From assembly GCA_030704615.1 (NCBI GenBank), contig CM060733.1, positions 17,732,001 to 17,796,000 of the forward strand: DNA of 64,000 bases. The letters run 5' to 3'. The position numbers were made by a program, and so were the translations under genes. This document shows, piece after piece, positions 38,445 through 64,000 of this stretch (position 1 is the stretch's first letter; every line of letters starts with the position of its first letter). Under the pieces are notes generated by a model. That model did not search any database. It saw only the letters and a program-made list of their open reading frames with translations, and was not told the DNA's origin. This DNA is from Takakia lepidozioides (lineage: Eukaryota; Plantae; Bryophyta).

Positions 38445-41400
38445 ATGGGTGGTGAGCAGGTGCGAGTGCAGGGGTCTCAGCAGTTTCGTCAGCGCCTGTT
38501 GCTTGCCACCTTGGCTGGCACTACCTTGCGGATCGATGACATCCGCGCAAGAGATACGGTGCCAGGCCTGCGGGACTACGAGGCCTCTTTCCTTCGTCTT
38601 CTTGAAAAGATTAGCAATGGATGCACTGTTGAAATCAACGAAACAGGTATTTCTGAAACCGGACGTGCTCCGGAAACTTTCAATCGTGCAGGACCTATGT
38701 TGTGCATGACACCTCACAGCCAATGCTTGTTAGGACCAGTTAAATACTAGGGTTTAGTAAACGAAGAAGTATATATGGATCAAGCAGCGGCGGCTACAGT
38801 GTTGGAATAGCGTCCGTTTTTGCCTGCCAAAAATTCTTGGACATCCTCCCCTCACCTGTTGAATCCTGTCTCATTTTTCAAGGAAATTATCGTGGCAGAT
38901 CTGATGATACTTACTACCTCGGCATTATGGGCGAATGTTGTTGAAAAACTTGCAGGCACAAAATTGAGGTACAAGCCTGGGATTCTCGTTGGGGGTCGAG
39001 GCCTTGTCCACGAGTGTGGAAGTGGCCGCTCAATTGGCTATTTCTTGGAACCCCTTATTGTGCTGGGTCTATTTGGGAAAACCCCTCTTTCTATCTCCCT
39101 GAGAGGTAAGGATTCATTCTCATTGAATCCTGACAGTTTATGCTGAAGAGTGTACATCTGTGCTGTTGGCTGGTTCCGTCAATTGGCTATTTCTCAGAAT
39201 GCAGTATTGTGCTTATTCCAGTGGGGCCCGAACTAAGTCTAGATGTCTGCACAGTGGTGTATGCTGAAGAGCCTAGGTCTTCTTGTTGGCTGCTTGACTG
39301 GCAGACATGACTGTGTATATGATTCTCTTGAATGTCAAAGTTCAGACAATCCAGGAATAAGAGAGCAAGTTGAGCAGGCTGAAACAGCTTGGACAGAATA
39401 TTGATTGCAGATGCAGGAGTGTAATGAAGATTCTGAATTGCTTAGAGATTTCATGAAAGCATTAAGTACTTGAAATTACTGATGTCCCAGGGTTCAAATT
39501 GGGGTTGGAAAATGGCAGGCATAACAAATGACAGCAAGGATCCATGTGTGGACACAGTCCGGACAACTACCCTGCCAATGCTGAAGCAGTTCGGTGTGCC
39601 CATTGAGGACTTAGAGCTGAAGATTGTGACACGTGGAGCTCCCCCTCTTGGTGGTGGGGAAGTGCGACTGAAGGTTCCTATTGTGCATACAAGCCTCTCT
39701 GTGAGTTGTACCCCACCACTCTTCTCCCCAATCCCTCTCCCCTGTTTGTGTCTTCAAACTCTTAGCTCAATTGTTTCCTCTGTTGTTACAACGATTTGGC
39801 AATAGGCAATGTGTGAGAAGGAGATGTGCTTTTCTTAGACTGTTTGCTGACAGACTTCAACAGGCAGAGTCCTCCTTGGGATGTTTACCTCCTGGAATTG
39901 TATGAAGGCTGGAAATTGCCAAAGTGCTGTGGACGGCTAACAATAATCTTGTTCCCAGTGTAGGTTGATATGTAGTGAAGGGCTGGCATTGATTCAAACA
40001 CTCAGTTTTTTTAGCACCGCTGTGTAGTCTCTGTTTGACACACATGTTGTTTGCGCAGGCGGTGACATGGGTGGATGAGGGCATGGTGAAGCGTGTGAGG
40101 GGGGTTGCTTATTCAACACGTGTCTCACCACAACTGGCAAATCGAATGGTTGATGCTGCCCGCGGGGTGCTTAACCGGCTTTTGCCTGATGTTTACATCT
40201 TCACTGATCATTACTCTGGCCAAGAGTCTGGGAAGTGAGTTCCTATTTTCTTTAATATCAGTCAGTTCTCTGAGATTAGGGTAGAGAGATGACATGGGGG
40301 AAAGTACTTGGGTTTAACAGGCCCAAGAATAAGGAATGAGGAACTGACTCCATGTGAGAGCAGCACGTGTCGTATAGCTGTCTCACTAAGAGGGACTGAG
40401 AGAGACAGAATGAATGTGTTTTTGCGAGTATGTATGACTAAAGCTTTATGTAACAGGTCCCCTGGATATGGACTCTCGTTGGTTGCTGAGACTACAAGCG
40501 GGTGCCTTATAAGTGCAGAAGGGGCAGCTGCACATTCAAAAGACGAAGAGCCAGAGATTTCAGAGAAAGATGGCCTAGCCTTGCCAGAGGATATTGGAGC
40601 ACATGTGGCCATGGCTTTACTTGAAGAGATCAAGCAGGGTGGTGTGGTGGATGCTACACATCAGGTGTGTTAAAGTGAAATGAACTTTCTTACCTTCTTC
40701 TAAAACTCTGGTGTGTCCTCTGTGTGGACCTCTCCATCTGTGGTAGTTCTATGGTTTTTCTCAAACTGGTTTCTACTACTCTGTTCCTTGGGCCCTCTGG
40801 CCTCCACCGACATAAGGAAGTTCTTTCTTTCTTCCTCTCTGTTTTTATACCTTGTGACAAAGTGAATTACAAACAGAAAGCTAGTCTGGATGACCAGTGA
40901 GCATTAGGAGCCCCCCTCTCTCGTGTGTGTCCTTTTTCTTCTTCTTCAACATGCAATTGGTGGTCAAGCACAACCATATTTGTCACCTCTGTTTTCAGCT
41001 AGAGGGCTAGGGCAGAAGTGCTTATGATCAACCATGTGCTTTCGAGTATGATATCTTTTCTCTGCATACATGCACGCTCACTCCTGGTACTGGATAGGCT
41101 TTGGCTGTGCACAAGTGCTATTGCAAGTTTGAGTCCAACTTACAGTAATGGGCTGAACTGGACAAGCTCTGGTAAGGGTGATATCCTGCAGATGAGATTC
41201 TCGAGTACCTGAATATTAGCCCAGAAGAATTGACCCGGATAGATGAAGCTGACTTGGAGACTGAAGTGTCTAAAGCCATGTCAGATGCTCGAGGACTGGC
41301 CAATGAAAATGAAGTTAGGAATGAAACTTCCCTGAACTTGTTGCCAGTCTGTGACGTGGGTGAGGACCTTAGGATGGCCTGAAGGGCCTACCAACACTAG

Positions 41401-42291
41401 ACTGAAATTTAAGCTCAGGGCGGGGAGTCTACCTTTGAACAACAAACAGATGCAGAGAGGAAAGGGGGACTGTAATTGCCCAATGTGTGGGCAGCCTGAA
41501 GACAATATCCATTTCCTGATATATTGTCCAAGGTATTCTCAACAGAGGGTGACTCTCGTCAGGTCTACGAGGAACATTGTTTCTGCACCTCTGTCCACCT
41601 ATTTTGAAAATCTCGAGGCGGAGCCTAAAGCCCTGGCCCTGTTGGGGTCTCATTGATGGGCAGGTCACACACAGCAGATTGATGCTTGTGTGAAGGGCTT
41701 TCTAGAGGATATCTGGAAAGTCTGAAGTAACTGTTTATATTAAGGTAAGTCCCACTACCGGAGTGAGCCCCTCACAAAGGTAGTGTCTGTGCCCTCTTGT
41801 TCTGCCCAAACTGGAAGCGGGGTCTATGGCAAACAACGTCTTTTGAGTACATTCCTCTCTCTCTCTCTCCCTCTCTCTCCGCCGTCTCTTGTTCTGTGTT
41901 GTTTTTACTTGTCCCCCTTAGGCCCTTTTGGGCATCCTGTGGTTGTAATGAATTCCTTCTTCCTCTCTCTCTCCCTCCACACATGCCACTCACACATCTG
42001 CCCATGCTGATGCTGTGAGTTGAACTCATCATAGGAAATGTCTTAACCTCTAATGGTCATTTGTTGTTTGTCTTGGTTCAGGGCCTCCTTTTTCTTCTGT
42101 GTGCACTGTGCCCCGAGGATGTCTCAAAGGTTCGGGTAGGAAAACTTTCTCCACATGCAATTCGAACATTGAGACACATCAAGCAGTTTCTTGGGGTCCA
42201 ATTCAACATCAAAGTTGATCCAGCCACAGGCACCATTGTGTTAACCTGTGTGGGGAGTGGGTATCGGAACCTATCCCGGAAGACCTCTTAG
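38445..42291 (+). CDS. RCL1: RNA 3'-terminal phosphate cyclase-like protein, 375 aa; exons 38445-38646, 38956-39105, 39519-39700, 40059-40234, 40457-40664, 42082-42291
   Basis: GSQQFRQRLLLATL, PGLRDYEASFLRLLEK, RSIGYFLEPL, GITND, RGAPPLGGGEV, SPGYGLSLVAETT, PEDIG, CVGSGY; GT-AG introns, 1128 nt in total. Confidence 0.97.
41000..41850 (+). mobile_element. 3' fragment of a LINE (C-terminal CCHC region) in RCL1 intron 5
   Basis: RLKFKLRAGSLPLN...CPMCG..EDNIHFLIYCPRY; same family as 46830-47053 and 61680-62120. Confidence 0.75.
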
Positions 42292-43298
42292 TCACCAAGA
42301 GATGGGTGACTGTGAATGATCATCATCACCAATTTTGACGTAAAAGTCACAACCTGTGGTCTTCTACCGGGAGGCAGCTATGATGTGGGGAATTTTCGGA
42401 TGCAGTGAATTTAGAGAGACATAGGGTTGGTGACATTGATGTGGTTTTGCCATAACAAGTTTAGTCTCTTTGAGATACCACGCCAGTTGGGCTAATATCA
42501 ACTGCCAGGGTACAGCATCAGATAGATAGAGAGTGTATGGAAGGGGAGAAAGAAGCCGAAGGTCCGAATCAGAAAACAAATGAGAGACACAAGCTATGTC
42601 TCTGAAAGAAAGCCAGTATTTTTATGTAGCAGTTGGACTCCATTGGAGGTATCTAGTAAAGCTTCCTGGGAAAGCAGAGTTGGATGCTTTTGAGTTTACA
42701 TGAACAACTCGACATTTCGCCTCAAGTTTTGTGAGGAAGACTTGGGAAGTTTAGATGATTTTGGTTCACAAATTGCCATGGCCTTCGTAGGCATTGTACT
42801 TGGCAGCTGTGCCATGACCAGGAAGTTGCCCATGATTGTGCATCAAAGTAAAAACAGAGTAGGGACGCCCACTGCATCCAATCTCATGATCCTCTTTCAA
42901 TTTAGTCTTGGTATTTTTTCATGAGAGCAAATTCAGTACATCAACAGTTCAAGCCTCTTTGTCAGAAGGGGTTCCCTCCTGCATAGCTCAACCAGGGCAT
43001 TCCCATATGTCCAACTCTTGAAGGAAACAAAGTAAGAACTTCATGAGCTCAATTGTCGTCGATAGAAGTCTGCCTAACACAGCGAAGGAAAAAACTTATT
43101 AGGGCGGGGACATGGAAGTTGCCTACTAACAACTGAAAGGGCTGCCGGGGAAGGTTGACTGACTGGTGACAAGGCGGAGAAGTCAATTTTTAGAGAGGGT
43201 GCCGCTCAAGGCACTGTGACAGCAGCTCCGCAGCGTCTTCCTGGGAAATTGTTGAGTCGCACATCTATCTGCGTATATATAGATCCGAGGAGCCGGTG

Positions 43299-46200
43299 AT
43301 GGCAGCTCAAGCTTGTGTTCTTGCGTGCCCCTCCTGCTCCACTCTTGCGCGTCCTCGCCTGTGCGTGTCTCTCTATCTCTTGCCAACTTTGGTTTTTCCA
43401 AGATGATGTGTAGGTTTGCTGCATTAGTACCGGGGTCTATCACTCCGAAACTTGCTCGATGCCATGTGGTTTCTGGTCACAGCTTTGAAGCCAGCTTTGC
43501 TACATTGGGTTCCAGCTCTGATTTTGGCATTGGGAGTGAATGCTTACTCTTTTGTGTTTGCCTGCTATATGATATGCTCACTATGGATGTGTTCAATGGT
43601 GTGGTTGCGAAGGGTACACTTAGGAAGTGTAGTTCTTCACGGGGGAATTAATGAGTACGTGCATTCTCGTATTTTGTTCCGTTCTATGTAGATAGCGAGC
43701 TGAAATTTCAAGAAAAATGTGGTAGATCCATGACTTTGCACAGCTGGTTACCAGACCTTTCAATTTTGAACTGGGTGGACAGGGCTAACTTTGTCAAGTC
43801 TCCAGCTATTCAATTTTTTCAGATCCGGCGGCAGCACAACTGTCGTGCAAGATCCCAAGTCCAAGGATCGTTTCTCGAAGTCAAGGTCCCTCTTTGTTGC
43901 GCAGTATGGCAGCCAGGTAGTTCCGACAACAATCTGTTGAATATTTGAGTTCGGTTCACTGGCATTGTACAAGACACGACTTTACAGGAGTGGTAGACGG
44001 GGTTAGAAGTCGGAAAATCGTATTAACACTTTCAAAGAGATCCTTAAGCAAGTTTTGAGCAGGATCTACGTTCAGATGTGGACTTCTACGTAAGGGTATT
44101 GTTTGGGGAAGTTGCTGGATGATGTTGGTGCTGGCAATTTTGCCAATCAAAGAAAGAGATTTCCTTTCGTATATATATATATATCATCAAGCCCAGTATT
44201 ACACCTCTTAGAACCTGAATAGGCGGTTGGGGTGAGATTGACAGCTTGCCCGCCAGGCCTCCTGTGAAGCTTGACTCGAAATCAGAGTGTCCGCCACTTT
44301 TTGATGGCACAACCAGGTCAGTAGATAAAACTTCACCGACTTTTCTTTCATTTTTTTCAAGGCAAACTGTAAATGCAAACCATGTTGTGTTGGGCAAGAC
44401 ACCACATTTTCGTACTCCATTACAGGCAGACACCAAACATACATGGAATTTGTGATAATGTCCATCTTCCATCATGTGACATGAAAAGACGGCTCTTTCC
44501 TGTCTGTTGCTTACATCTGGGAGAAGGCATGCCTGATGGATAGAGGTTAACCTCTTGTTGGGTGTAGGCTATATTACAACTCCAGCAGCCCCTTTGCACA
44601 GCGAGTCTTGGTCGCTGTCAACTACAAGGTTTGTGTTACTTCCTGATGTTGCAATCGAGACAAGTGACCGCTTATGGACTGAGTTCTATGTTCACTGAAA
44701 CTCTGAAGACAGTCCTTTGATTTAATCTCTCCATTCTTTAGGATAGTTGGGCTTCCAACTTTTGGTTGGCGTTTTGGCACGGTTGGAATCCCACAAAGCT
44801 ATTGGGATGTTAGGCTTGCAAGAAACAGGAAACATTGGATGCTGTGTTGCATTTTCCAGCTGTGTAAGGTTTTCTAAATATTTGACTTCAAGAAAAGCTT
44901 AGATTTTGGCTGTGATGGACCCCGTAGATGAATGGGCAGTGGCAGATGAACACACACTGCAGTTTTTCAAGTATATTCCGCAACTTTTCCTGAAATAACA
45001 ATTGTTGAAGCATTTTTGGGACCTGTGCAAAATGTGGGAATGGATTCAGGGTCTGGCTGACATTGAACTCTTAGAAATCAGCCTTTCCGACAAGCCCATC
45101 TGGTACAAAGAAAAAGTTTACCCTGTTGGCAAAGTACGCACTCTTATCTCTGTTTTCATCCCAGTCTTTGCTTGTTAGAATCTACAGCTGTTCTCTTTTG
45201 CAGTGGCTATGATTGTCTCTTGTTTCCGGTTTGCTCAAGAAGAACAGTGGGATAAAGGCAATGGATCTTTGAGGGAGGGGAAACATCATTTTGAGCTGTG
45301 CATGTGTGTGTTGATTGGCAGGTTCCAGCACTGGAGCACAATGGTAAAGTGACGGGTGAGAGCCTTGACTTGCTGGAATACCTGGACAAACATTTTGGAG
45401 GGCCACTTCTGATTCCTACGGTAAGTAGATGCTCCTTCAGTCCCCATTCTAGGTTACTTGAACACTTTAGGTGTCCTTCTGCTCGGTCTATTCAGACTGC
45501 TGCGACTGCCTTTTGATTTGACTCGCAATTACCTTACCTTAGAAAGGACCCATGTGAATTCAGTTGAAATATATAACATGCCTTGAAGGGAAGGTTGTTG
45601 AAGAGATGAATACTAGATAAAACAATCCAGACAGTAGATAATACTTGGGGTATCTAGAATCTCAAGAAAAGGGGAAGGATATGTCAGTGAGTTTTTCATG
45701 GTGTGTGCACATGGTTGGGTGGACAGGAAGAGGCCAAGAAAGAGGCAGCAGCAGAGCTGCTGACGTACCTTGACACCTTTAATAAGGCAGGCTTCACCAT
45801 CCTGAGAATGAAGGATCCTGCACCATCGGAAATAGACGAGGCCATAAGTAAGCTGACTATGCTTTCTTCCCTTTTCGGTTTGGTGGATATGTATGTGGAG
45901 GACAACTATTATCACCTTAGGTATGAGGCAAGGAACGAACAACCAGACCATAGACACCCTGAAGAAGAACCTTAAACTCCCGGATAATGCTATTCTTGCT
46001 TTCCTTCACTCCTTGCACCTCACCACTCATCCTTAACGAAGGAAAGTGAAAAGTGGACCAATGATGCCACATAGTTAGGTCGTTCACAAAACGGGGGCAG
46101 TCCCTGGGTTCTCATTTATTCTGGCTCTGGCTGGTGTCGTCTCGCTCTCTCTCTCCGGAAAGACAGCTGTTTGGATGTAGCCTTTCACAAGGCTTCATAA

Positions 46201-48041
46201 GGAGATGGTGAGCCTGGTTTCTCTTTCTAGTTATGTGGAGCTTTGCTGATTGATGACATCTGCTGTATGTCAGGTCCTGCGCTTGATTACATAGGAAATG
46301 CACTTGGGAAATATGCAAATGAAGGACCTTTTTTCCTCGGCAAGTTTGGTGTGGTGTGTACGCAATGCCTTCACCTTTGGGATGGTTTTGAGTGATGTTT
46401 CCATGGCAAAGTCTAGCAGTGTCCTCATAGAATTGTACGTGCTTAGATGGATTCAAATACTGTCCACTTTAACACTACTGTCTTTGCATTATTCCTTCAG
46501 CAATGGGTCATTGTGAACTGCTTTGGAGGTCTCAGAGCATTGTTCTGTAGCCTTGTTACGACTGGACATCAAGTCTTCCTGAAACCTCTCTGGAGCTTAA
46601 ATTGAGGAATGTGTTGTGTTGCCATCTGGTTAGAAATTATGAAATAGGGCCAAAAACATCCATTCCAAGGATGCAGCCATTTGGTAGCTTGGGAATGTGT
46701 ATACAGAAGATTGTTTTGAACTGCTTCTAGTTTATCTAATTAGTATTAAGATAACTTTTTTTCGGAGAGAGAGAAGGAAATTGTGTAAAATCCACACACA
46801 TCGAGAATGTACTCATGAGTTGTTGTTTGCCGTAGCCTTTTGGCCATAGACCTGGTGCCCAGTATGGGCGGAACAAGAGGGAACAGACTGATTACCTTTG
46901 GTAGGGGCTCACTCGGGATATGAGTTGATAAAAAAAATTAGTTAGGGCTTTCCAGATTTCCTCTAGATAGTCCTTCACACGAGCATCAATCTGCTCTGTG
47001 TGAGCTGCCCAGCAATTGGACCTCAGCGGGGCCAGGGCTTTAGGCTCAGCGTCTAAGTGGTTATCTCTGCTGGCTTGTGAGGTGAATGTCATTCCAGGTC
47101 TTCATGATCCTTCCTGTCCATTGCTTCAGGTGGATGTTGCATATGCGCCATTTGTGGAACGGTTTGAAGTCTTTTTGTCTGGGATTAGGAACTATGACAT
47201 TACAGTCGGGCGACCAAACCTTACCAAGTGGCTTAAGGTAAGGATTCCAGTCCTCCCAAAATCATTGGTGATACAAAATTGCATCCATGTACATTTTTTG
47301 TCCCTCTATTGCCCATGGCTTTAATGCATGGAAGAAGAACATGCTTATCTTTTCTCTCTTTTATTACTTGTAATGTTTCGCTCTTCTTTCTTCGTTGCGT
47401 TTTCCAGCCCACCCCACTAGAACCAATTAAAGTGTCTGTTACCCAGTTTCCATTCCATATGGGCTCTATTTTTGTCTTCAGTTTCCCCTGTATTGAGTTG
47501 TAGACATGCAGGATATAGGTGAATACGTTTTTAGGATCTGAATGTGCTCTCTTGGAAGTCTTTTCCAGGCCACACTTTTTGTGATGTTGGGCTAGGACCC
47601 AGCCTAAGGTCTGAAAACGGGGTACTGGTCTGGGGGGAGTATAGGCTGTCAATAAGGTGGAGGCATATACAAACACCAAACTTGACCGCAGCATTCTACT
47701 GGATGAAATGAAGAGATTGATGGTAAGCTGCAACTATTTCTTTGAATTGTGGAAGGTGCAAACGAGAGATGTTTTCTAGGGATATATGATATGGGACTCA
47801 TGCTGTTGCCTTGTGGGCATAGATAGACATGGCACTAACAGTACGCAGCAGAAAGAAAAGTGGGGATAGTAGAGATGTGTTGTCCTGCCCAAGGGTTTCT
47901 TCATTTTGTTTGCTGAGAGTAGTAATACAGAAACCATTGATTGGCTTATCATGTTTTGAGATTTTCATGGAGGGAACGGTTGAATGTAAACTTTGTTTAA
48001 GATATGTTGGCGGCTTGCAGGTAAAATTTGCTAACGCTTGA
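43299..48041 (+). CDS. GSTL: Lambda-class glutathione S-transferase copy 1, active-site Ser variant (11 exons; second ATG at 43906)
   Basis: LDSKSECPPLFDGTTRLYYNSSSPFAQRV, KPIWYKEKVYP.GKVPALEHNGKVTGESLDL, GPFFLGKFGVVDVAYAPFVERF, YDITVGRPNL.KW, ending VKFANA*. The frame is intact from 43906. Confidence 0.93.
46830..47053 (-). mobile_element. LINE 3' fragment in a GSTL copy 1 intron
   Basis: Reverse complement matches 41620-41830 (cagattgatgct.gtgtgaagg....ctagagga.atctggaaag). Confidence 0.75.
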
Positions 48042-49347
48042 ACCCCAGACAACCCAGATGTTACCTATGGCTTGCACCTAATCAAGATTGTGTGCTGGAT
48101 GGAGTGGTTTCTAGTAAGAAACCAAGGTCGGGTGATCACAAGGTCATGGATAAGCTAAGGCTGGTTTGAGATATGCACCTAGAATGAGTTGGGATTCAAT
48201 CCAGCTGCTCTAGTCATCTGGAAGAACTGCAAATAACAGACTCTTTGGCAAGATGGTGTGGCTTATACTGAATTTTTGCATTTTTACCTATATGATGCAA
48301 ATATGATTTTCCCGGAGCTTCATTCATCTAGCAGACCAGTGATAGGTAGTGAAAAGGAGAATGTTTGTTGTGAGGAATATTAGATATATGCAAAGTGCAA
48401 TTGAAAGTGCTGTCAGGTTTACCAATGCTTTCACTACTGTCATTGATGAAACTTGGTGTAAAACTATCAGCAGCAGAGTGTATGTTGTGTAGGTGTAAAG
48501 AAGACATGAGGGGGTCATTTTGGGAAGTATATATGGAAAAGTCTTTAAGAGAATGTGGAAAGAATGGTAAGAGAACATGGGCTAGAAATCAGAATCTTCA
48601 CTTGTACAGCAGTATTGGGCAGGAAGATCCTTAGGTAGATCATTTTAGGAAGATCTTTAAGCTCGTGTAGAGCTGTTGCTTGAATAGTGGAAAGAAGGTG
48701 AGAGTCAAGATTGTCTAAACATGCATAGACACAGGTGAGTTCCACAAATTAAGCTACCACTGTGCCAACAGCCAAGCATCTGGAGGTTGATGAACCAAAT
48801 TGAAAACATCACATGTGAGGGATCTAAAACCATGGATATTTTACGTGGTTCAGCGATTCCTTCTGCTTTTCAATGGAGAGGGTCAAAGCTCAGTGCTTGT
48901 TGTAACTTTAGCACATAATAACCCAACCCCCGAGTAGCTGGAACATCAGGAAGAACTAAGAACCTTGCAACTAACTCCAATACCGGTTGGCACGTACCAG
49001 GCGATAGAGAACTGAGAAAATAGAGGAGAAAACAGAGCACCTTCATATAGTTGAGGCCTTGACCCTCTTACACATACTAGAGCAAAACAAAGCTCCTGCA
49101 TAACTGTTGTCCTTCTGGTACAATGCAATCCAGCCGCCCCTTTCACTGCACCCATCTCATTATACGTCTACATATACATATGTGCATTTGAAAAAAACGA
49201 AGGGTCATTTAGTAAAGGAGGGAGGAAAAAAATAGCGTAACACATAACACCTAACACTTGCTTTGTAAAATCTGAGGTTGGGTAGCATGTGAGCATACTC
49301 ACACAGTTATGTGGTTTTTCTGCCATTTTTGCGCCTCCGTTAAGTGG

Positions 49348-52620: not shown

Positions 52621-55600
52621 GCAAAATGAGCATAATAGAGGCCTTGCAAGCTATATTGTGAGGTGAAAGGACCACTCCAGCAAAAGGAGTAGAATTGACG
52701 CCTTGGTCAACACTATGGCGACACTATGGCGATAATATGAAGGCAGAGGGTGGCGAAAGGGGAGGAGGGACTTGAAGGCAGGGAGCGGTGGTATATATTA
52801 AGGTGGATGGCTTTGCATCCTTCCGTATTTGTTTTAGTGGCATGTCAATGTGATGTTTGTTTTTATATACCAGGAATTGAACCGGTGTGCAGGAACAACA
52901 CTGACAAGATGTAAAGCTATTTTATATGTACTCCAATTGTTTGAAGAAGTTTATTCCTCACGAGTCATACATTGGGACATATTTTTTATGTCAGACTATA
53001 TGCATTACGACTATGATTTTTCTACTCAAAATTACATCTCCCACTGAAATGTTATACTCCATTAGCCCTCCAAGTTTGGGTGGGCCCAGTTAATTCTAGA
53101 GTGGTCCAGGAATTAGCGTGGTCCGGGAATTAAAAAAGGGGGCTAATCTGATAAGGCCACATGTATTAAGGAATGAAATGGAAGGTACAAAAACAAATCC
53201 TCCGAGGCATTAATCAGGAAGGTCAGAAAGACGAAGGCGAATGGCCCAGCCAATGCTGGGCCGCTGGAACATGCGAATAATGAGGGCAGGTGTAGGTCGC
53301 TGCGTAGAAATAGTGGAAAGTTCTAGAAAAAATGGCGGGGCGGTGGCCTCTGTAAAGTTCGAGAAGTACCTGCGATCTGGAAAGTTCTTCTGGAGCGACC
53401 AGGAGGCGAGCGAGCAACAGTACCAGCGTGCGGGGTGCAAGGTAGGGTGGTGGGAGCTGCTGGTGCGCAACGACATGCTGGAAGGAACGCTGGTGGGCCC
53501 AGCAAGCTCTGCATAACGAACAGGCTAGTGTCGCGAGCCATATCTGTTGGAAATGGTAGATGTAGTGTTTGAACTGTATTGATTCGATACATACTGTTGT
53601 TACTCTGATGCAAACTTTGGTTGCTCAGCAGGTTCCTATATCCCAGTTTATGGCAGAACTCGTCGCAATGAGCATGCATTTTAGATTTGTGTATAACTTT
53701 CAAATGTTTATACTTGTAAATAAAGTTCCAAACCATCAACTATTAAAACGAAACGACAATAAATAACCATTATGAGGTCGTATGCCTGTGAAGCCTGATT
53801 CCGGCTCTATGGGTTTGTTCTCTTTCCTCTACCAGACTTAACCTTATCTAGGGAATGTAGTCGATAGATGGGCCTGGCAGAGAAGACGGAATCTTACTAA
53901 GAGGACACCCTCGCGTAAAACCCAAAAAGCCACCACCCTCACTGCCACGGCAGTGAGGTTCAAATAGTATTAGGTCATAACCTAATCCTAGTGCCGCATG
54001 ACACTTACATATAGGTCCACCATATGCCCTTCCAGCACAGCCATAGAAAGAAGCCAAATCACCCAGTCCCATCCTAATCTGATCCTAAACTAGCTGTTAG
54101 AATAAGACAACCCCTAATAAAGCTATCAGCTGTTGCCAGCTCATCCTCATGCGCAAAGGTGTAAGTTCATCCAGACTTCATCTTGGCTTCGTCCATCCCT
54201 TAAATCATCCGGAGCGCATCCCTCCTCTATTCATCCATGTCGAAAAATAAGGTGAGAAGGAATCCCAGCTCCACATATGTGAAGCCTGCTGGGCCCACAA
54301 GAAATTGCGAGCTCCTACGAGTGATGAGCTCAGGAAGAATGAAGCCTAGCCAAAACAAACTATACACCTAGCACACAAGGGATGAAAAAACCTAAGGAAG
54401 AAAACCTCACCCTGCAAGCTGGGTGGAGGACAAAACATCCCATAGGAAAAACCCCAAGTGCTACAAATGGTGCAGAAAACTAGCACGAAATTCAAATACT
54501 ATTCTAAAGAAGAGGATGCCATGTTTTGCGAGCTATCCGAGCTATGGGGGTGAAGATCACCTGACGGTTCTCAACATTCAAACAGGTTAGATCAAAAGTA
54601 AGAGTGCATAGAACAAGTAGTGAAACATGAATGGAGCTAGCTAAGTGAGGAGTAGAGGCATGTTGTGGGAGCAAGACATACTGTTTGCCAGGAAGAATAG
54701 CAGAGATAAGGTAAGGGCCATCAATTCTTCGTTTGGCCTTGGAAACCTGCTTACCAGGCTGGAGCCTCACACAAACAGACTGACCTACCTTGAATGACTC
54801 AAAATACACAACTCGACGGTTGTAATTTTTTGTCTGAGCAGCTTGGGCAAACACAATGTTAGATTTGGCAGTTTCCCTCAAAATGCATCTTCTAGCATCC
54901 ATGGAAAGCAAAAAGACTTCCCAATTTTCAAGCTTAGTAGCCGAGAGCTGCAGCCAGGAGATATGCAAAGGGGTTCTACATTTCCTACCATACAAAAGTT
55001 CAAAAGGTGTATTTTTTGTCCCTTTGTAACTGTTCAATCAAGGCAGGCAAGTCAGATTGGTAAGGGCACCACCCGGTGTAATGCTTGATATGCAAATCAT
55101 GCAAGCCACTACTGGGGTCCTGATGTCATGACGCATGTCAGCATGGGCTTTACCTTGAGGCCCCGATCTGGCAGGGACTGCAGGGTCCCAGCCTACCTCA
55201 GCTTTGAAGGCTTGCAGTTCTCCCTGGATTTCATTACGAAAAGATGATAACTCATGCACAATGGAAGGGACCAGATCTTCTGCAATACCTTTCACCCCAG
55301 GGTCCCCATCAGTAGGCTCTACACAGTGACTCTCCCTAGCTAGATGAGTGTGTTTCGTGTAGGCAACTTTAGACAGGCCTGCCTTAGCAGCTTTGAGACG
55401 TAACCTTTCTTCAATCAATTCCACCATCTCATCTTCAGTGGTGTAAGTCTGTTTTTGCAGAAACACTTTCTCAGCAGGGGGCAAGCCTTTTACAAAACAA
55501 TGTTTCAAAATAGCAGGTCTCTCTGATGCAATCAAAACCGACTTACAAATTGCAGTTCGTAAATCAGTGTATTATTTCCACACACTGTCGCCATAATGAA

Positions 55601-56480
55601 ATTTTAAGTCTGGTGTGGTGTAAGCTATGGGCTTTTCTTCACGAAAGAGCTTGCGAGCCAACTCTCTGGCTTCGACCCACGTAAGATCATTTTTGTCCTT
55701 AATGTTGGACTCAAACAGTTGCCTGGCTTCTCCATTGAGACAGATCTGAAAGGACTTCATTTGGAATCGTGGGGGAACTCCATTCATTTCAGTGTTGATT
55801 TCAAAAAAATTCAAGAAGGACTCAAAATCCTCCCCTAAGTTGTACTCAGGGTATTGCTCCTTATGCATTCGCTCTCCATGATCAGATTTTCGTGAAGTAG
55901 TGTCCGGAACTTCAGATTGTTTCAGCAACATCTTCAAAAGGGGGGGTACAATTTGAAATCACCCCCATGGCTTTACACAGCTCGTCCAAATCAAATGTGG
56001 GCGGAGGCACAGTCGCCGGATCTTTGTGATCTCCGGACGACTCTCCCATTTCCATATTATTCTTTTCATTAGTTGTTGTCTCTTCCCTCTCCTCCGTTGC
56101 ACGTTTTTCCAACTCACTCAGTCCCATTGTCTCTTCTGCTTCCCTTTCTAGCATAGATCTTGTAAATACAGGCATGAGAAGAGAAGTACACGGCTATCTG
56201 TCTGAAGAAGTACTAAGCTGTGAGTCCCACACAGTGGGAGGTGATGAAGCGGTGCTTGTGCAGCAGGTACACTCATTCTCCCAAGAATGCCCACAGTTCC
56301 TCTTCACCCTTGAGCCAAAAAGCCACGCGCACGATGCTGCGCACTGCTTTCTCTTTCACCAACAGCGTGTGGGCAGGATATGTCTGAGCTTCTTCGGCCT
56401 TGTAGCGACCTATTGTTTCACGCCGAAAACACACCCCCGAAAAGATCAACACATCACTGGGACAAAAAAGAAATTCAGAG

Positions 56481-57104
56481 TCAGATACCCGTGATGAGCT
56501 CTTCCCAAGTGGGATCCCGGGTAGGGGCTGGCGGAACTCGAGGCCTTAAATTAGCAAGCAGGATAGATGTTCCTCCCTTAACCAGTTCCCACAATCGTAG
56601 AGGGCTCGACTTGTCAGGAGGCAGGAAGCTCTCAAGCTCCACACCCAATTCTCGACTCATAGAGAACTGTGGAATGCCCAAGACGGCCCAGCTAAGCTTC
56701 TCACCACTCTCCAATTGCTCTTTGGCACTAACAAGGGGGATTTGTAGGATGACTTCCCTGGAATGAAGTTTGAGGAGAAGGCCTGCAACATAGGCTCCCT
56801 GAAGAGATTCGCGAATGCGCCGGCTCTGCTCCCACTGCTCCGCTTTGGTGCGTATGGGTTTGCAAGCTTCATTGGACGCAGTTTCCTCAAAGGTTTTGGC
56901 CCAGAACTCCGAGGGTGTGTCCAGCGGGAGCTCGGGCCGCGGAATCGGTTCTCCCTCCGGGTAATCAACAAAAACCAACTGCTCAGGCAACAGGTTGCGC
57001 GCAAGCTCACAGATGTAGCGAGATTCCAACGCCAGAGTCTGCTTTAAGCGTGAGACTTCGAATTGATCAAGTTCAAACCAACCATGCTCAGAACTGGAAG
57101 CCAT
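56481..57104 (-). CDS. Additional ORF upstream of gag in the LTR element (207 aa, unknown)
   Basis: ATG-initiated open frame between PBS and gag; probably continues after a frameshift to ~56190. Confidence 0.55.
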   Translation of the reverse strand: MASSSEHGWFELDQFEVSRLKQTLALESRYICELARNLLPEQLVFVDYPEGEPIPRPELPLDTPSEFWAKTFEETASNEACKPIRTKAEQWEQSRRIRESLQGAYVAGLLLKLHSREVILQIPLVSAKEQLESGEKLSWAVLGIPQFSMSRELGVELESFLPPDKSSPLRLWELVKGGTSILLANLRPRVPPAPTRDPTWEELITGI

Positions 57105-57296
57105 AGTGCTTGCTTGCTAAACTCTCAAAACACAGAAAAGCTCGAGCAGACAAATTTCCTCTCTCTCTCTCTGCGCGCGAGACACAAGCCGTCATTTTGC
57201 TACTACCTCTCCCTTCCATCATGCAGGATCTTCCGTACCCAATCTACTGTTTTCAGGTGCTTCGTACCAACTAAATCCTTTGTCAACGATTTTAGT

Positions 57297-57314: not shown

Positions 57315-58227
57315 TGATTCCGGCTCTATGGGTTTGTTCTCCTTCCTCTACCGGACTTAAACCTTATCTGGGGAATGTAGTCGATAGATGGGCCTGGCAG
57401 AGAAGACGAAATCTTACTAAGAGGACACCACAGACTCAGACCTCCAAAACACTTTCATCCAACAACTCAAAGCACACCGTTACACCCAACGTACGCTCGC
57501 GTAAGACCTAAAAAGCCACCACCCTCACTGCCACGGCAGTGAGGTTCAAATAGTATTAGGTCATAACCTAATCCTAGTGCCGCGTGGTACTTACATATAG
57601 GTCCACCAGATGCCCTTCCAGCACAGCCATATAAAGAAGCCAAATCACCCAGTCCCATCCTAATCTGATCCTAAACTAGCTGTTAGAATAAGATAGCCCC
57701 TAATAAAGCTTTCAGTTGTTGCCAGCTCATCCTCATGCGCAAGGTGTAAGTTCATCCAGACTTCATCCGTCCCTTAAATCATCCGGAGCGCTTCCCTCCT
57801 CTATTCATCCATGTCAAAAAGTAAGGTGAGAAAGAATCCCAGCTCCACATGCCTCTACCCGATTACCCCCAAATCGTTCAAAAAATAAAGTCAACCAAAG
57901 CAGGCTGTCTGAAGGAGGGTGGCTATTGCATGCGGCCCCACATGACTATTGCATGCCCTGTTTCCCACGAAGCGACTTAAAACGGATAGAGTGTCACGTC
58001 GATTTACATCATGGAATATCCTCTGTCCATGGAAAGTTCACTGGAAGTTCAGCATGGAGCCAGTTACGGTGGAACAGGCCCTGGAGAGGGCATTCCGGTG
58101 GGGAAGGACCAGAAAGGGGACCGCATACAATGAACGGTGCGAGGGCGGGCTCAGCGACAGCGTCTTGGTGGGTCATTGCGGGGCTGCACATCTATCTGTA
58201 TATATATATAGATCCGAGGAGCCGGTG

Positions 58228-61200
58228 ATGGCAGCTCAAGCTTGTGTTCTTGCGTGCCCCTCCTGCTCCACTCTTGCGCGTCCCCGCCTGTGCGTGCCTC
58301 TCTATCTCTTGCCAACTTTGGTTTTTCCAAGATGATGTGTAGATTTGCTGCATGAGTACCGGGATCTGTTTCTTGGAAACATGCTCGGTGCCATGTGCTT
58401 TCTGGTCACAGCTATGAAGCCTGCTTGACAAAGCGGGTTCATCCTCTGATGTTGACATTGGCAGTGAATGATTACTCTTTTGTGTTTGCTCTGGTATATG
58501 GTATGCCCAATTGCATATCCAATGTTGCAGATAGTGCTTCTATCAAGTGATAATTGGTACAGGAGTTTGATTAGCTGTCTACACTTAGGAAGTGTAGTTC
58601 TTTCCGCTGGGGGAAAAGAGTACATGCATTCTAGGAATTTGTTCCGTTTTATATAGGTAGATAACTGAGCTGAAATTTCAAGAAAAATGTGGTAGATCCA
58701 TGACTAGAACGGCTGGTTACCAGACTCATCCATTTTCATCTGGCTGGACAGGGCTAATTTGGTCAAGTCCCCAGTAATTCAATCTTTCAGGATCCGGCGG
58801 CAGCATAACTCTCGACTGTCCAAGATCCCAAGTCCAAGAATCGTTTCTCAAAGTAGAGCTCCCTCTTTGTTGCGCAGTATGGCAGCCAGGTAGTTCCGAC
58901 AACAATCTGTTGAATGACTGAGTTCGGTTCACTGACATTGTACACGTCACAATTTCACAAGAGGGGTGGATGGGTTTTGAAGTCGGTACTTTGATTGGCA
59001 AAATTGCCAGCACCAACATCATCCAGCAACTTTCCCAAACAATACCCTTCCGTAAAAGTCCATATTTTGACTTAGGTCCGGCTCAAAATTTGCTTAAGAT
59101 TCTCTGTAAAAGTGTTAACACGAGATTTCCTTTCGTATATATATCATCAAGCCCAGTGTTAATCCTGTTAGAACCTGAATAGGCGGCGTGGGTGGGATTG
59201 ACAGCTTGCACGCCAGTCCTCATGTGCTTGACTCGAAATCAGAGTGTCCGCCACTTTTTGACGGCACAACCAGGTCAGTAGATAAAACTTCACCGACTTT
59301 TCTTTCATTTTAATCAAGGCAAACTGGAAATGCAAACCATGTTGTGTTGGGCAGGACACCACAATTTCGTACTCCATTACAGGCAGACAGCCAACATACA
59401 TTGAAATCGTGATAATGTCCAGCTTCCGTCATGTGACATGAAAAGACTACTCTTTCCTGTCTGTTACTTCACATTTGGAGAAGGCATGCCTGATGGATGG
59501 AGGTTAAACTCTTGTTGGGTGGGAGACTAGGCTATATTACAGCGCCAAATGCCCTTATGCACAGCGAGTCTGGGTCGCCGTTAACTACAAGGTTTGTCTT
59601 ACTCCTTTGACGTTGCAGTGAAGACACGCGACTGCTTATAGACCTAGTTCTACGGTCACTGAAACTCTTAAGATAGGCCTTTGATTTAACCTCGACATTC
59701 CTGAGGATAGTTGGGCTTCCAACTTTTGGTTGGCAGTTTGGCACACTTGAAGTCCCACAAAGCTATTGGGATGTTAGGCTTGCAAGAAACAGAAAACTGT
59801 ACAAAGTTTTGAATTGTCCAGCTGTGTAAGGTTGTTTAACTTCAAGCCAAGCTTAGATTTTGGCTGTGATGGACAGCTTGGGTGGATGGGCATTGGCAAA
59901 TGAAACACACTGCAGTTTCAAGTACACTCCACAGCTTTTGCTGACATAACAATTGTTGAAGCCTTTTTTGTACCTGTGCGAAATGTGGGAATGGATGCAG
60001 GGTCTGGATGACATTGAACTCTTAGAAATCAGCCTTGCTGACAAGCCCATCTGGTACAAAGAAAAGGTTTACCCTATTGGCAAAGTACGCACTCTTATCT
60101 CTGTTTTCATCCCAGTCGTCACTTGTTAGAATCTACAGCTGTTCTCTTTTGCAGTGGCTATGATTGTGTTGAAGAAAAGTGGGATAGAGCCAATGGATCT
60201 TTGAGCGACAGAAAGCATCGTCTTGAGCTATGTATGTTGATTGGCAGGTTCCAGCACTGGAGCACAATGGTAAAGTGACGGGTGAGAGCCTTGACTTGCT
60301 GGAATACCTGGACAAACATTTTGGAGGGCCACTTCTGATTCCTACAGTAAGTAGATGCTCCTTCAGTCCCGATTCTACTTTTAACACTTTAGTTGAAATA
60401 TGTAACTTGCCTTGAAGGCAAGGTTGTTGAAGAGTTGAATAATAGATAAAACAATCTGGACAAGAGATGAGACTGATGGTAGCTAGAATCTGTTCTCAAG
60501 AGAAAGGGACAGCGAGGTCAAGTGCATTTTTCATGGTGTGTGGTTGGGTGGACAGGAAGAGGCCAAGAAAGAGGCAGCAGCAGAGCTCCTAAAGTACACT
60601 GACACATTTAATAAGGCAGGCTTGTCCATCCTGAGCCTGAAGGATGCTTCACCATCGGAAATACACGAGGCTTTAAGTAAGTTCAGTGTGCTTTCTTCCC
60701 TTTTCAGTTTGGTGGATATGTATGCGGGGACAACTATTATCACCTTAGGTGTGAGGGGAGGAACAAACAACTGGACAATAGAGACCCTGAAGAAGAACCT
60801 TAAACTCACAGCTAATGCTATTCTTGCTTTCCTTCACTCCTTGCACCTCACCACAATCAGAACCATCACAGCACTCATCCTCAACAAAGGAAAGTGAAAA
60901 GTGGACAAATTGATGTCACATAGTTAGGTCATTCACAGCAAGGGGGCAGTACCTGGGAGTGGAAGAGGTTCTCATTTACGCTGGCTCCGACTAGCGTCAT
61001 CTCGTGCTCTCTCTTGGATGTAGCCTTTCAAAAGGCTTCGTAAGGAGATGGCGAGTGTGGTTTCTGTTTCTAGTTATTTGGAGCTTAGCTGATTGATGAC
61101 ATCTGCTGTATGTCAGGTCCTGCGCTTGATTACATAGAAAATGCACTTGGGAAATATGCAAATGAAGGACCTTTTTTCCTCGGCAAGTTTGGTGTGGTGT

Positions 61201-63257
61201 GTATGCGATGCCTTCACCTTTGCGATATCCTTTACTTACATTTCCATGGCAAAGTCTAGCAATGTCCTCAATAGGATTGTACGTGCTTAGATGGATTCAA
61301 ATACTGTTACTTTAATGCTATTGTGTTTGCGTTATTTCTTCAGCAATGGGTGTTGTGAACTGCTTTGGAGGTCTCAGATCATTGTGGTGCAGCCTTGTTA
61401 CGACTGGACACCAAGTTTTTCCAAAACCTCTCTGCAGCTTAAATTGAAGAATCTGTTGTGTTGCCGTCTGTGTTAGGAGTTGCCAAGCAGGGCCAAAAAT
61501 ATTCATTCGGCAGGATACAGCCATTTGGTAGCTTAGGAGTGCACATGCAGAGAAACCTGCAAGTTGTTCTCACTTGCTTCCAGTTTATCTAATTATTATT
61601 AAGATAACATGTAGTTGTGGTGAGAGAGAAGGAAGGTTATAACATCCACAGACATAGATAATGTACTCATAAGCTGTTGTTTGCTGTAGTCTTGTGGCTG
61701 TAGACCTGGTGCCCAGATTGGGAACCGACACTACCTTTGGTAGGGGCTCACTTGGGACTTGAGGTGATATACGATAAGTTAGGGCTTTCCAGATTTCCTC
61801 TAGAAAGCCCTTCACACAAGCATCAATCTGCTGTGTGTGAGCTGCTCAGCAAGTAGACCCCAACAGGGTGAGAGCTTTACAATCAGCCTGGAGTTTTTGA
61901 AAATTAGGGCACAGAGGTCCAGAGAGTATGTTCTTGATGGTCCTGAAGAGGGTTGCTCTTTGATGAGAATACCCCTTGCAGCTGGCACATTGGGCATTGG
62001 CGATTCCTCACATCTGTTTTTGTTCAATGGAAGACTGCCTGCCCTGAGTTTACATTTCAGTCCAGTGCCAAGGGTAGTTAGGCCCTTCAGATCATCCTTA
62101 AGGAGCACACAGAGAGAGGGAGAGAGAGCGTAGCTAAGGTTGACAGATTTCCCAAGGTTCTAATATGGTGTATGTTTTAAAACTTGATGTGGGGTGGTCT
62201 CATCTTCTGAGAGAGACTATTTAGTGAGGAACTTTGTAATGTCCACTGGAACCTCTGAAAGAAAGGATTGAGCTTAAGCGGTTATCTCTGCTGGCTTGCA
62301 AGGTGAATGTCATATCCAGGTTTTCATGGTTCTTCTTCTCCATTGCTTTGATGCCAGGTGGATGTTGCATATGCGCCTTTTATTGAACGGTTTGAACTTG
62401 CCCTCTCTGGGATTAAGAACTATGACATTACAGTTGGGCGACCAAACCTTACCAAGTGGATTGAGGTAAAGAATCTAGTCCTGCCAAAATCGTTGTTGAT
62501 AGATACTTCGTCTCTGAACATTTCTCTTTTTTCTCTCTTTCTAATGCTCATGGCTTTAATACAAGAAGGAAAATGCTCTCTTTTCTCTCTTCTTTTACAA
62601 TGTCCCCTTCTTTTGTTTCTTTTTCCGGCCCGCTGGACTAGAACCAAGTAATGCCTGGCCCATAGTTTCTGTTTGCATGTGGGCTCTATAACTGCCATGT
62701 CAAGCATCAGCTAACTGAACGATTGATCTCTTCTGTGAGTTCTTTCCAGCCCACACTTTCTGTGATGTTGCACTAGGAGTCAGCCTAAGGTCTTGAGAAT
62801 GGGGTACTGATGTGGGTGGGAGTATAGGCTGTGAATAAGGTGGAGGCATATACGACCACAAAAGTTGATCGCAACATTCTACTGGATTTGTACAAGAAAA
62901 TGCTGGTGAGCTGCCACTAATTTTGGAAGGTGCACATTAGAAAGATGTTTCTATGGATATTGATCTCATTTTGTCGCCTTGTAGTGCCATATGCGATATT
63001 GGAGAGAGAAGACCTGGCGGAGGTGGTGGTGGGGTGAGAGAGGGAGAGAGAGATGTTTTTATCCTGAGGGTTTCTTCATTCTGTTTGCTGAGCGTAGATA
63101 CATATAAACATGTTTGAGATTTTCATGGAGGGGACCTGTGCATGTAAGTTGTTTAAGAAGATATGTTGGGGGCTTGCAGGAAAATGCCTACTTCAAGAAG
63201 GTGGGCATAGTTGAGGACCAAACCCAAACCACCCCAGTACCTGTAGCTAGCACATAA
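58228..63257 (+). CDS. GSTL: Lambda-class glutathione S-transferase copy 2, canonical CPYA site, with transit-peptide-like N-terminus (11 exons)
   Basis: Exons 58228-58289 and 58791-58889 give an R/S-rich leader in frame with ...FDGTTRLYYSAKCPYAQRVWVAVNYK...; ends ENAYFKKVGIVEDQTQTTPVPVAST*. Confidence 0.95.
61680..62120 (-). mobile_element. LINE 3' fragment in a GSTL copy 2 intron
   Basis: LKCKLRAGSLPLNK; same intron position as in copy 1 but longer. Confidence 0.78.
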
Positions 63258-64000
63258 TTCAGATCTTTTGCTGGATTGAGTGGATTGTAGAAAGAAAGTA
63301 AAGTGGGGTGATCATAACCTCGTGGATATGAAAGATCATGGGGAGCTTGCTTTCAAAGGTGGTTTTTAGATAATACCCAGAATGAACTGGGATATGCGAC
63401 CAAACAATTAAGTTGCTTTAGTTAGAAGACCCCAAATATCGTACTTTTGGCCCCCGAGCCTGTGGCTTGTACTTGATTCTGTCTATATGTTGTGTAAAGA
63501 TGGTTAGCTAGCCATGCTAGCAAAAAGGAGATGGTTTCATGGGAAGAGTATTCTGGGCAGAATGTTTGTGGGAGAAGAAATTGTGAGACTGAAAAAGAAG
63601 GTAAGAAAATAGGGAATACAGATAATCATGACTCTTTGTAAACTTTTCACTTCCAAAACAAGTCAAAAGTCTTCGACCAGATTATCTCCCTCGAAGCCCA
63701 GGACATGTTTATCTCGACAATGTGGTGGATTCCACCACCCTCACCTCCCTCATCTGGAAGAGGCTTTACAAAATTGGTGGTTGCTGGCGTGATGGTCCCC
63801 GCATTCAGGCAAGGTGAATAGTTAGTCTTGGTATGCTGTGTAGCACTAGCAAGTGCTGCAGGCTTTGCATGTTTGTTATGGAGGTGGAGACAATGCCCAG
63901 ACAATGGCAAAGGAATTTTGGGATTCTTCCAATTTTTCCACCTCAGATTTGCATCCCAACTCATGCTGTTATGGCAGGAACAGGTAGCACTTTCCTGCAC

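What the first reader, a model, noticed from the sequence alone, without database searches (positions are those of the whole stretch)
44568..44628. Lambda GST paralog with catalytic Cys replaced by Ser (SPFA versus CPYA)
Seen: AGC at 44587-44589 versus TGC at 59550-59552, in a gene whose GST-domain exons are all intact; neighbouring residues also changed (NSS/SAK, L/W). Known: lambda GSTs are Cys-GSTs that deglutathionylate substrates, whereas tau and phi GSTs use Ser (tau motif SPF) to conjugate glutathione. Inference: a natural switch of reaction direction by neofunctionalisation after tandem duplication.
Basis: partly seen in the sequence, partly recalled or inferred. Interest (0 to 1): 0.75.

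Follow-up and report, generated by a model that had tools for sequence, protein, structure and literature searches.

The report
Serine-type lambda GST in a moss
A duplicated detoxification gene, likely from a moss, has serine where its sister copy has the catalytic cysteine and is still transcribed and spliced, so it likely attaches glutathione instead of removing it; the same swap was already noted in four flowering plants, and peat mosses carry a separate family with it.

Summary
Observation confirmed: AGC (Ser) at 44587-44589 versus TGC (Cys) at 59550-59552 in two tandem lambda-class GST genes, both with open GT-AG exon chains. A DNA contig matches the Ser exon with no difference, and run X5 holds spliced contigs for both copies. 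Runs X5 and X6 hold a third paralog with Ser from a different codon (TCT). The pair groups with moss GSTLs. The Ser copy keeps the glutathione-binding residues, but evolves about three times faster, has rebuilt the helices that likely line the substrate site, lost the C-terminal tail, and has a frameshift in the transit-peptide exon. Best reading: a cytosolic, glutathione-binding enzyme that lost deglutathionylation and likely conjugates (0.55); rivals are a ligand carrier (0.2) or a decaying duplicate (0.2; dN/dS 0.60, one near-invariant Glu lost, mRNA 5' end not seen). The idea is not new: Lallement 2014 reported SPFA lambda GSTs in four angiosperms with the same inference. New here: moss cases, and an independently derived Ser-lambda clade across six Sphagnum species (shared origin rejected, p-AU 0.0007). 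Mosses reportedly lack tau GSTs, so repeated re-invention is a testable idea. No activity was tested.

The parts
44587..44589 (+). AGC (Ser35) at the catalytic position, first residue before helix alpha1, copy 1
   Evidence: DNA contig with 0 differences; helix start from the model of moss homolog P0169
43906..48041 (+). Copy 1, Ser-type lambda GST, 244 aa. Coding exons 43906-43916, 44245-44316, 44568-44628, 45050-45133, 45322-45420, 45727-45847, 46274-46353, 47130-47237, 47645-47722, 48021-48041
   Evidence: all GT-AG, open frame; 7 of 9 introns listed as joints in X5 contigs, one more as a loose end, the first (43916>44245) not seen; some joints may be shared with paralogs
43299..43916 (+). 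Copy 1 5' exons (43299-43360, 43783-43916) homologous to the transit-peptide exons of copy 2; a 4-nt deletion near 43845 shifts the frame with the homologous acceptor; an alternative AG before 43806, or skipping of this exon, would keep the frame
   Evidence: no spliced RNA contig listed here, so the splice actually used is unknown
46294..46296 (+). GGA (Gly157) at a position that is Glu in 172 of 176 Cys-type and 8 of 8 Ser-type relatives
   Evidence: the G is in the X5 contig of depth 186.6
48021..48041 (+). Shortened last exon of copy 1 (6 residues then TGA); the tail shared by copy 2 and the plastid-type moss, lycophyte and gymnosperm GSTLs is lost
   Evidence: joint 47721>48020 in X5
59550..59552 (+). 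TGC (Cys34), canonical CPYA motif, copy 2
   Evidence: spliced contigs 59271>59529 and 59589>59999 in X5 (161) and X6 (1076)
58228..63257 (+). Copy 2, Cys-type lambda GST: exons 58228-58289, 58752-58889, 59205-59273, 59531-59591, 60001-60084, 60248-60346, 60556-60676, 61117-61196, 62358-62465, 62828-62905, 63180-63257; 63-aa Ser/Arg-rich, acid-free extension in frame before ATG 58879 (predicted plastid transit peptide)
   Evidence: joint 58289>58752 in X5; targeting is inferred from composition, no predictor was run

Best explanation
Copy 1 is a transcribed, spliced lambda-class GST gene that arose by tandem duplication, has Ser in place of the catalytic Cys and keeps the glutathione-binding residues; it likely encodes a cytosolic enzyme that cannot deglutathionylate and likely works as a Ser-type GST, holding glutathione as a thiolate for conjugation or peroxide reduction. 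Shown: the codon, the open exon chain, spliced contigs, the kept G-site motifs, the faster rate, the lost tail. From established chemistry: without the Cys no enzyme-glutathione mixed disulfide can form, so the lambda ping-pong deglutathionylation is lost. Inferred: start at ATG 43906 and cytosolic location; gain of conjugating or peroxidase activity; a new substrate range from changes in the beta1-alpha1 loop, the end of alpha4, alpha6 and alpha9. Copy 2 likely keeps the ancestral plastid deglutathionylase role.
For: G-site motifs (Lys of D-K-P, Val-cis-Pro of G-K-V-P, Glu-Ser of G-E-S) are unchanged, with 1 change in 60 residues from Asp62 (roles from PMC4138524 section 9). Codons 53-112 carry 2 nonsynonymous differences on both branches against about 10 expected on one neutral branch (P=0.003), and the 226-codon core has 0 indels against about 9 expected from intron rates (P=0.0001, or 0.05 if the intron count is inflated threefold). 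Asymmetry: 11 departures from conserved sites in copy 1 only against 1 in copy 2 only (P=0.006); branch lengths 0.13 against 0.041 with the motif columns removed. The departures map to alpha1, the end of alpha4, alpha5, alpha6 and alpha9 (via homolog P0169). Recurrence: 9 of 194 aligned relative domains have Ser, 181 Cys, 4 misaligned or gapped; 41 of 45 proteins of five Sphagnum clusters have Ser, 4 lack the motif region, in six named species; one origin with copy 1 is rejected (p-AU 0.0007). A third paralog in X5 and X6 has Ser as TCT, not AGC. Natural Ser omega GSTs of Trametes conjugate glutathione and lose reductase activity (PMC5981210 section 5; PMC4591263 passages).
Against: No assay exists for this protein and I found none for any Ser lambda GST. 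Pairwise dN/dS is 0.60 (0.37-1.04) and most change is on copy 1, so its own ratio may be near 1. Glu157 (172 of 176 Cys relatives) and Trp42 (171 of 176) are lost. The mRNA 5' end with ATG 43906 was not seen in any listed joint. The low divergence of exons 5-6 could partly be gene conversion (3 synonymous differences against 6.5 expected, P=0.11). The overlap of changed sites with other Ser lineages is largely shared by Cys controls (mean 7.2 of 10 in 5 Ser rows against 4.9 in 24 Cys rows, rows not independent). Lambda GSTs are monomers whereas Ser-GSTs are mostly dimers (PMC4138524), and the catalytic residue does not always dictate GST function (PMC11449216 section 4). Ser is also the mildest replacement at a helix start (own knowledge), so its recurrence need not mean catalysis.
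Confidence: 0.55

Rival explanations
1. Non-catalytic ligand carrier: loss of the reactive Cys turned the duplicate into a cytosolic binder of phenolics or glutathione conjugates, with a rebuilt hydrophobic pocket.
For: Changes concentrate in likely H-site elements while the fold and G-site are kept. Lambda GSTs bind flavonols tightly and Ser omega GSTs bind polyphenols (PMC4138524 passages; PMC5981210). The third paralog also loses the Pro after the Ser, as does Sphagnum P0282, which suggests a loosened catalytic geometry.
Against: All 9 clean replacements of the Cys among 194 aligned domains are Ser; a pure carrier should tolerate Ala or Gly too. All six Trametes Ser omega GSTs tested conjugate CDNB, two of them weakly.
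Confidence: 0.2
2. Young duplicate under relaxed selection, still transcribed but on its way to becoming a pseudogene; Cys>Ser is a loss-of-function change that happened to be conservative.
For: dN/dS interval reaches 1.04; Glu157Gly and Trp42Leu hit near-invariant sites; frameshift in the transit exon and shortened tail; start of the mRNA not seen; a single-base nonsynonymous change of TGC gives Ser 15-29% of the time by chance.
Against: No stop, frameshift or broken splice site in the GST domain although introns diverged 15% with 82 indel events in 3070 aligned bases; N-terminal domain segment conserved (P=0.003); lost transit frame and tail resemble ordinary cytosolic GSTLs; an analogous Ser clade is kept across six Sphagnum species.
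Confidence: 0.2
3. Sequencing or assembly artefact, or an allele of the Cys gene assembled as a second locus.
For: The DNA run that confirms the codon may be the assembly's own source. The table of other letters did not list known differences in this exon for the paralog's contig, so a missing row is not proof for the RNA contig.
Against: Contig with 0 differences over 426 bases; 10 differences in the 61-nt exon and 15% intron divergence; distinct spliced contigs for both copies in X5, a different sample and study.
Confidence: 0.02

Closest known systems
SPFA-motif lambda GSTs of Eucalyptus grandis, Linum usitatissimum, Malus domestica and Ricinus communis (Lallement et al. 2014, PMC4138524, passage in section 6)
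   Same: Lambda scaffold with SPFA in place of CP[F/Y]A; the same predicted reversal to glutathionylation; the paper also notes tandem expansion of GSTL genes in some of these species.
   Different: Here in a moss-lineage genome, derived from the plastid-type moss GSTL; independent origin; accompanied by a broken transit frame, a lost tail and a second Ser paralog with a TCT codon.
Canonical lambda GSTs: poplar PtGSTL1 (4PQH) and PtGSTL3 (4PQI), Physcomitrium GSTL1
   Same: Best structure matches: exon 9 E=4.6e-9 and 9.8e-8; moss homolog P0169 E=3.9e-75, Foldseek TM 0.83; 65-69% identity of copy 1 to moss GSTLs.
   Different: They have the catalytic Cys and deglutathionylate; copy 1 has none at the active site (its only Cys is residue 19 in the N-terminal arm).
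Serinyl omega GSTs of white-rot fungi (TvGSTO1S-6S; PMC5981210, PMC4591263)
   Same: Natural Cys>Ser at the start of alpha1 in a Cys-GST class after gene expansion; shown to conjugate glutathione and bind polyphenols.
   Different: Omega class, dimeric, fungal; biochemically proven, which this one is not.
Sphagnum Ser-type lambda clade (P0281, P0282, P0284, P0286, P0306 and cluster members; found here)
   Same: Ser at the catalytic site, loss of Trp42, most members 237-256 aa without a long N-terminal extension, altered alpha4 end and alpha9.
   Different: Older, three subfamilies (SP[F/Y]S, SFYG, SPAS), sister to the Sphagnum Cys GSTL (95/95), not to the window's pair.
Tau-class GSTs
   Same: Ser-Pro-Phe motif at the start of alpha1; tau structures are close fold neighbours of the lambda model (ranks 4 and 18).
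   Different: Only 22-29% identity to the lambda model; reported absent from mosses (PMC9937507, PMC6540824, passages); copy 1 nests inside lambda.

Membership tests
Lambda-class GST (by descent) | Sequence closest to lambda GSTs and nested among them in a tree | tested here: met
   sister to copy 2 (100/99) inside the moss GSTL group (96/97); the trees held lambda rows only, class assignment rests
Lambda-class GST (by descent) | GST N- and C-terminal domains, about 230-240 aa, motif near residue 40 | tested here: met
   Pfam GST_N_3 on exon 6 above cut-off, GST_C_2 on exon 9 just below; 244 aa, motif at 35; sizes from PMC4138524
Lambda-class GST (by descent) | G-site residues: Lys in the beta2-alpha2 loop, Val before cis-Pro, Glu-Ser before alpha3 | tested here: met
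   features from PMC4138524 section 9
Cys-GST (functional group of canonical lambda GSTs) | Catalytic Cys in CP[F/Y]A | tested here: not met
   SPFA in copy 1; met by copy 2. Copy 1 is therefore not filed as a Cys-GST
Cys-GST (functional group of canonical lambda GSTs) | Deglutathionylation / thiol-transferase activity; monomeric state | not testable with these tools
   needs recombinant protein
SPFA-type lambda GSTs (Lallement 2014) | Lambda scaffold with SPFA motif | tested here: met
   a convergent category, not a clade
Ser-GSTs (tau, phi, theta, zeta, TCHQD) | Ser at the start of helix alpha1 | tested here: met
   Ser35 aligns with the residue before helix H30-41 of the P0169 model
Ser-GSTs (tau, phi, theta, zeta, TCHQD) | Sequence membership of one of these classes (class members usually above 50% identity) | tested here: not met
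   exon 9 hits only lambda structures at E<0.001; tau structures 22-29% identical to the moss lambda model
Ser-GSTs (tau, phi, theta, zeta, TCHQD) | Glutathione conjugation or peroxidase activity; dimer | not testable with these tools
   inferred only by analogy with fungal Ser omega GSTs

The most novel reading that the evidence does not exclude
Mosses, which lost tau-class GSTs, have repeatedly rebuilt serine-type conjugating GSTs from the plastid lambda gene: once in the Sphagnum ancestor and once or twice in this genome (AGC and TCT codons), each time with release from the plastid and a rebuilt substrate pocket, giving monomeric glutathione-conjugating enzymes.
Probability: 0.3. Interest if true: 0.6.

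Novelty: new member of a known kind. Interest (0 to 1): 0.4.

Why it matters
The Cys/Ser dichotomy is the standard rule for predicting the direction of plant GST reactions, and Ser lambda GSTs were flagged in 2014 as an interesting exception; I found no assay of one in the held library. A young Cys/Ser pair (intron divergence about 15%, 51 differing codons in the core) with a third, differently encoded Ser paralog is a clean natural experiment on which changes beyond the one residue are needed to reverse the reaction. If the moss cases conjugate, they would explain how a tau-less lineage supplies part of its detoxification capacity. It remains an enzyme-family variant, not a new system.

Tried and rejected
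No whole genome is held, so the third paralog could not be located and the absence of tau GSTs in this organism could not be tested. A word-index search with one exon found nothing (weak). No listed holder was on record as RNA; X5 and X6 are taken as RNA because their contigs skip GT..AG introns that the DNA run does not skip. X6 lists no joint for the Ser copy's exons 3-4 and neither run lists its first coding intron; contigs show presence, not absence, so this is not used as evidence of silence or tissue specificity. Depths were used only as labels of contigs, not as expression levels. X7, X8 and X9 gave nothing useful. A site-convergence test looked strong at first (8 of 10 shared with Sphagnum Ser proteins, P=2e-5) but Cys controls share 3-8 of the same 10 sites, so it is downgraded to a weak excess; one control row (P0200) was dropped because the motif pattern did not match. 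The 40-row tree is the quick version because the careful search did not finish; the 17-row careful tree used LG+G4 without the mixture model. The primary GSTL structure paper (Lallement 2014, Biochem J) is not held, so H-site residues are assigned only by secondary structure of a homolog, and its text or supplements may hold a Cys>Ser mutant result that I did not see. The spliced proteins were not folded; the model is of homolog P0169. The bacterial promoter scan is irrelevant to a plant gene. Look-ups of earlier findings gave nothing on this locus; one arthropod Ser>Cys note does not bear on it. A supplement search for SPFA showed only tau sequences in the 4 passages returned. No complex prediction was run.

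Full report
Observation. The stated bases are correct: AGC at 44587-44589 and TGC at 59550-59552. They lie in homologous 61-nt exons (44568-44628 and 59531-59591) of two genes in the same orientation about 15 kb apart; self-comparison aligns 43231-48152 with 58158-63328 at 70-88% identity. From ATG 43906 and ATG 58879 each gene has ten coding exons, nine of nine introns end in GT..AG, and the frames are open for 244 and 262 residues. An exon of copy 1 matches poplar lambda GSTs 4PQH and 4PQI and nothing else at E<0.001; Pfam finds the GST N-terminal domain above cut-off and the C-terminal domain just below it in single exons.

Is the codon real and expressed? Of 9 runs listed, 4 DNA runs of one sample hold about 90% of the words and two runs guessed to be RNA hold 32% and 13%. 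DNA run X1 has a 426-base contig over 44325-44750 with 0 other letters; it may be the assembly's source. X5, another sample and study, has contigs that skip 7 of the 9 predicted introns at GT..AG ends, with an eighth seen as a loose end; the DNA run shows none of these joints. With both copies offered at 95% likeness, one X5 contig (depth label 145) stays on copy 1 across 44314>44566 and another (161) lies on copy 2 across 59271>59529 and 59589>59999; X6 has the copy 2 contig (1076). So both genes are transcribed and spliced. Two limits: the table of other letters failed to list known differences in this exon when the paralog's contig was laid on it, so the RNA support for AGC rests on placement, not on a printed base; and no listed joint covers the first coding intron of copy 1, so its start is not shown.

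A third form. X5 (193.5) and X6 (614.7) hold a further spliced contig whose replaced letters read L-Y-Y-N-A-L-S-S at this site, with Ser encoded by TCT and the following Pro replaced by Ser. It is not in the window (one search shows only two copies). X1 depth on shared exons is about three times the single-copy level (86 against 28), a hint only, as the tool warns. AGC and TCT serines are not one base apart, so either Cys was lost twice or Ser was re-encoded through an intermediate (inference). By chance two single-base changes of TGC would both give Ser 2-8% of the time.

Where it sits. The nearest named relatives are moss GSTLs (Sphagnum, Ceratodon, Physcomitrium; 66-71% to copy 2, 63-69% to copy 1). 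In a careful tree of 17 rows with the motif columns removed, the two copies are sisters (100/99) inside the moss group (96/97); a quick tree of 40 rows agrees. The window is therefore likely from a moss and the duplication is lineage-specific.

What else changed in copy 1. (a) Targeting. Copy 2 has an in-frame 63-residue Ser/Arg-rich extension without acidic residues, and X5 shows its first splice (58289>58752); the single Physcomitrium GSTL is chloroplastic (PMC4138524, passage). In copy 1 a 4-nt deletion shifts this frame to a stop when the homologous acceptor is used; an alternative AG before 43806 or skipping of the exon would keep the frame. Cytosolic location is thus likely, not shown. 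(b) Tail. Copy 1 ends 6 residues into its last exon and lacks the tail that copy 2 shares with plastid-type moss, lycophyte and gymnosperm GSTLs. (c) Rate. Of 124 sites conserved in at least 80% of 13 Cys relatives, 11 depart in copy 1 only and 1 in copy 2 only (P=0.006); branch lengths are 0.13 and 0.041. Mapped on the secondary structure of a model of homolog P0169 (pLDDT 92.9; best Foldseek match 4PQI) the departures lie in the beta1-alpha1 loop, alpha1, the end of alpha4, alpha5, alpha6 and alpha9; alpha4 and alpha6 form the substrate pocket in a fungal Ser omega GST (PMC5981210 section 5). (d) Kept. The glutathione-binding motifs described in PMC4138524 section 9 are unchanged.

Selection. 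Over 226 core codons dS is 0.143 and dN 0.086 (ratio 0.60, bootstrap 0.37-1.04); introns differ by 14.7%. Codons 53-112 carry 2 nonsynonymous differences against 10 expected on one neutral branch (P=0.003), and the core has no indel against about 9 expected (P=0.0001; 0.05 if the intron count is inflated threefold). This argues that the frame and the N-terminal domain are still under selection, although gene conversion may contribute. Against full constraint: Glu157 (172 of 176 Cys relatives, 8 of 8 Ser relatives) is Gly and Trp42 (171 of 176) is Leu. Relaxed and positive selection cannot be separated with two sequences.

How often this happens. Among 194 domains from 182 fetched relatives, 181 have Cys, 9 Ser and 4 are gapped or misaligned; these come from the listed tops of three searches (150 of 151, 120 of 945, 120 of 1133), not from all hits. 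The nine are a Pteridium, a Malus, a Sphenostylis and an Ananas protein and five representatives of a Sphagnum clade. Of 45 proteins read from those five clusters 41 have Ser and 4 lack the region; six Sphagnum species are named. The clade is sister to the Sphagnum Cys GSTL (95/95), and forcing it together with copy 1 is rejected (p-AU 0.0007). It too has lost Trp42 and most members lack a long N-terminal extension. A broader convergence signal is weak: Cys controls share 3-8 of the same 10 sites (mean 4.9 of 24 rows against 7.2 of 5 Ser rows).

Mechanism. Lambda GSTs attack glutathione conjugates with the catalytic Cys, form a mixed disulfide and are regenerated by glutathione; no transferase or peroxidase activity was detected for them (PMC4138524 section 10). 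Copy 1 cannot do this. In Ser-GSTs the hydroxyl lowers the pKa of bound glutathione, which then attacks the electrophile (PMC6540824, passage). Natural Ser omega GSTs of Trametes show this switch. I therefore commit to a Ser-type conjugating or peroxidase enzyme at 0.55, a ligand carrier at 0.2 and a decaying duplicate at 0.2. Cautions from print: lambda GSTs are monomers, and the catalytic residue does not always dictate function (PMC11449216 section 4 part 2).

What is known. PMC4138524 (passages, sections 9 part 1 and 10 part 1, and 4 supplement passages seen) states that GSTLs with SPFA motifs occur in Eucalyptus, Linum, Malus and Ricinus and should have opposite properties. It is the only paper holding lambda, GST and SPFA. 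Searches for moss or Sphagnum Ser lambda GSTs or for assays of such proteins returned only general reviews; most subscription papers, including the primary GSTL structure paper, are not in the library. Tau GSTs are reported absent from mosses (PMC9937507 and PMC6540824, passages); I could not test this for the present organism. Also seen as passages only: PMC8256493, PMC13495499, PMC4591263.

Verdict. A real, expressed new member of a described but apparently unassayed kind. Interest 0.4. The bolder reading, that tau-less mosses repeatedly rebuilt conjugating GSTs from lambda, has probability 0.3 and would merit 0.6.

Noticed in passing
P0281, P0282, P0284, P0286, P0306 and cluster members P0316-P0355 (not in the window): A Ser-type lambda GST clade with three subfamilies (SP[F/Y]S, SFYG, SPAS) conserved across six Sphagnum species, independent of the window's Ser copy; not found described in my searches. 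Probably the better target for biochemistry.
   Followed up: yes
contigs of X5 and X6 laid at window 44317-44629 / 59556-59592: A third lambda GST paralog outside the window with Ser encoded by TCT and no Pro after it; transcribed in both runs.
   Followed up: partly
window 43275-43300 and 58198-58230: A TATA-like run lies only about 20 bases before the first ATG of the transit-peptide exon in both copies, so some transcripts may start after that ATG and give a cytosolic form even of the Cys copy; the X5 contig begins 26 bases into the exon.
   Followed up: no
window 61170-61811, 61927-62386, 62437-62853: Contigs running through introns of copy 2 in X5 and X6 at a sizeable fraction of exon depth labels (26-71), possibly intron retention.
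   Followed up: no
window 44018-44152 versus 58989-59123: A 135-base segment of the intron after the ATG exon is inverted in one copy relative to the other (88% identity).
   Followed up: no
window 46790-47050, 61720-61973 and, inverted, 41532-41833: A very high-copy short repeat sits in the same intron of both GST genes and in an intron of the upstream gene.
   Followed up: no
window 38446-42300, + strand: Spliced gene just upstream that resembles RNA 3'-terminal phosphate cyclase-like RCL1 (label recalled from the sequence; a Pfam scan of its first exon alone gave no hit).
   Followed up: partly
window 54507-57116 (- strand) and 8825-11689 (+ strand): Broken open frames that look like LTR-retrotransposon gag/integrase remnants between the two GST copies and a LINE-like remnant further upstream (labels recalled, not tested).
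   Followed up: no
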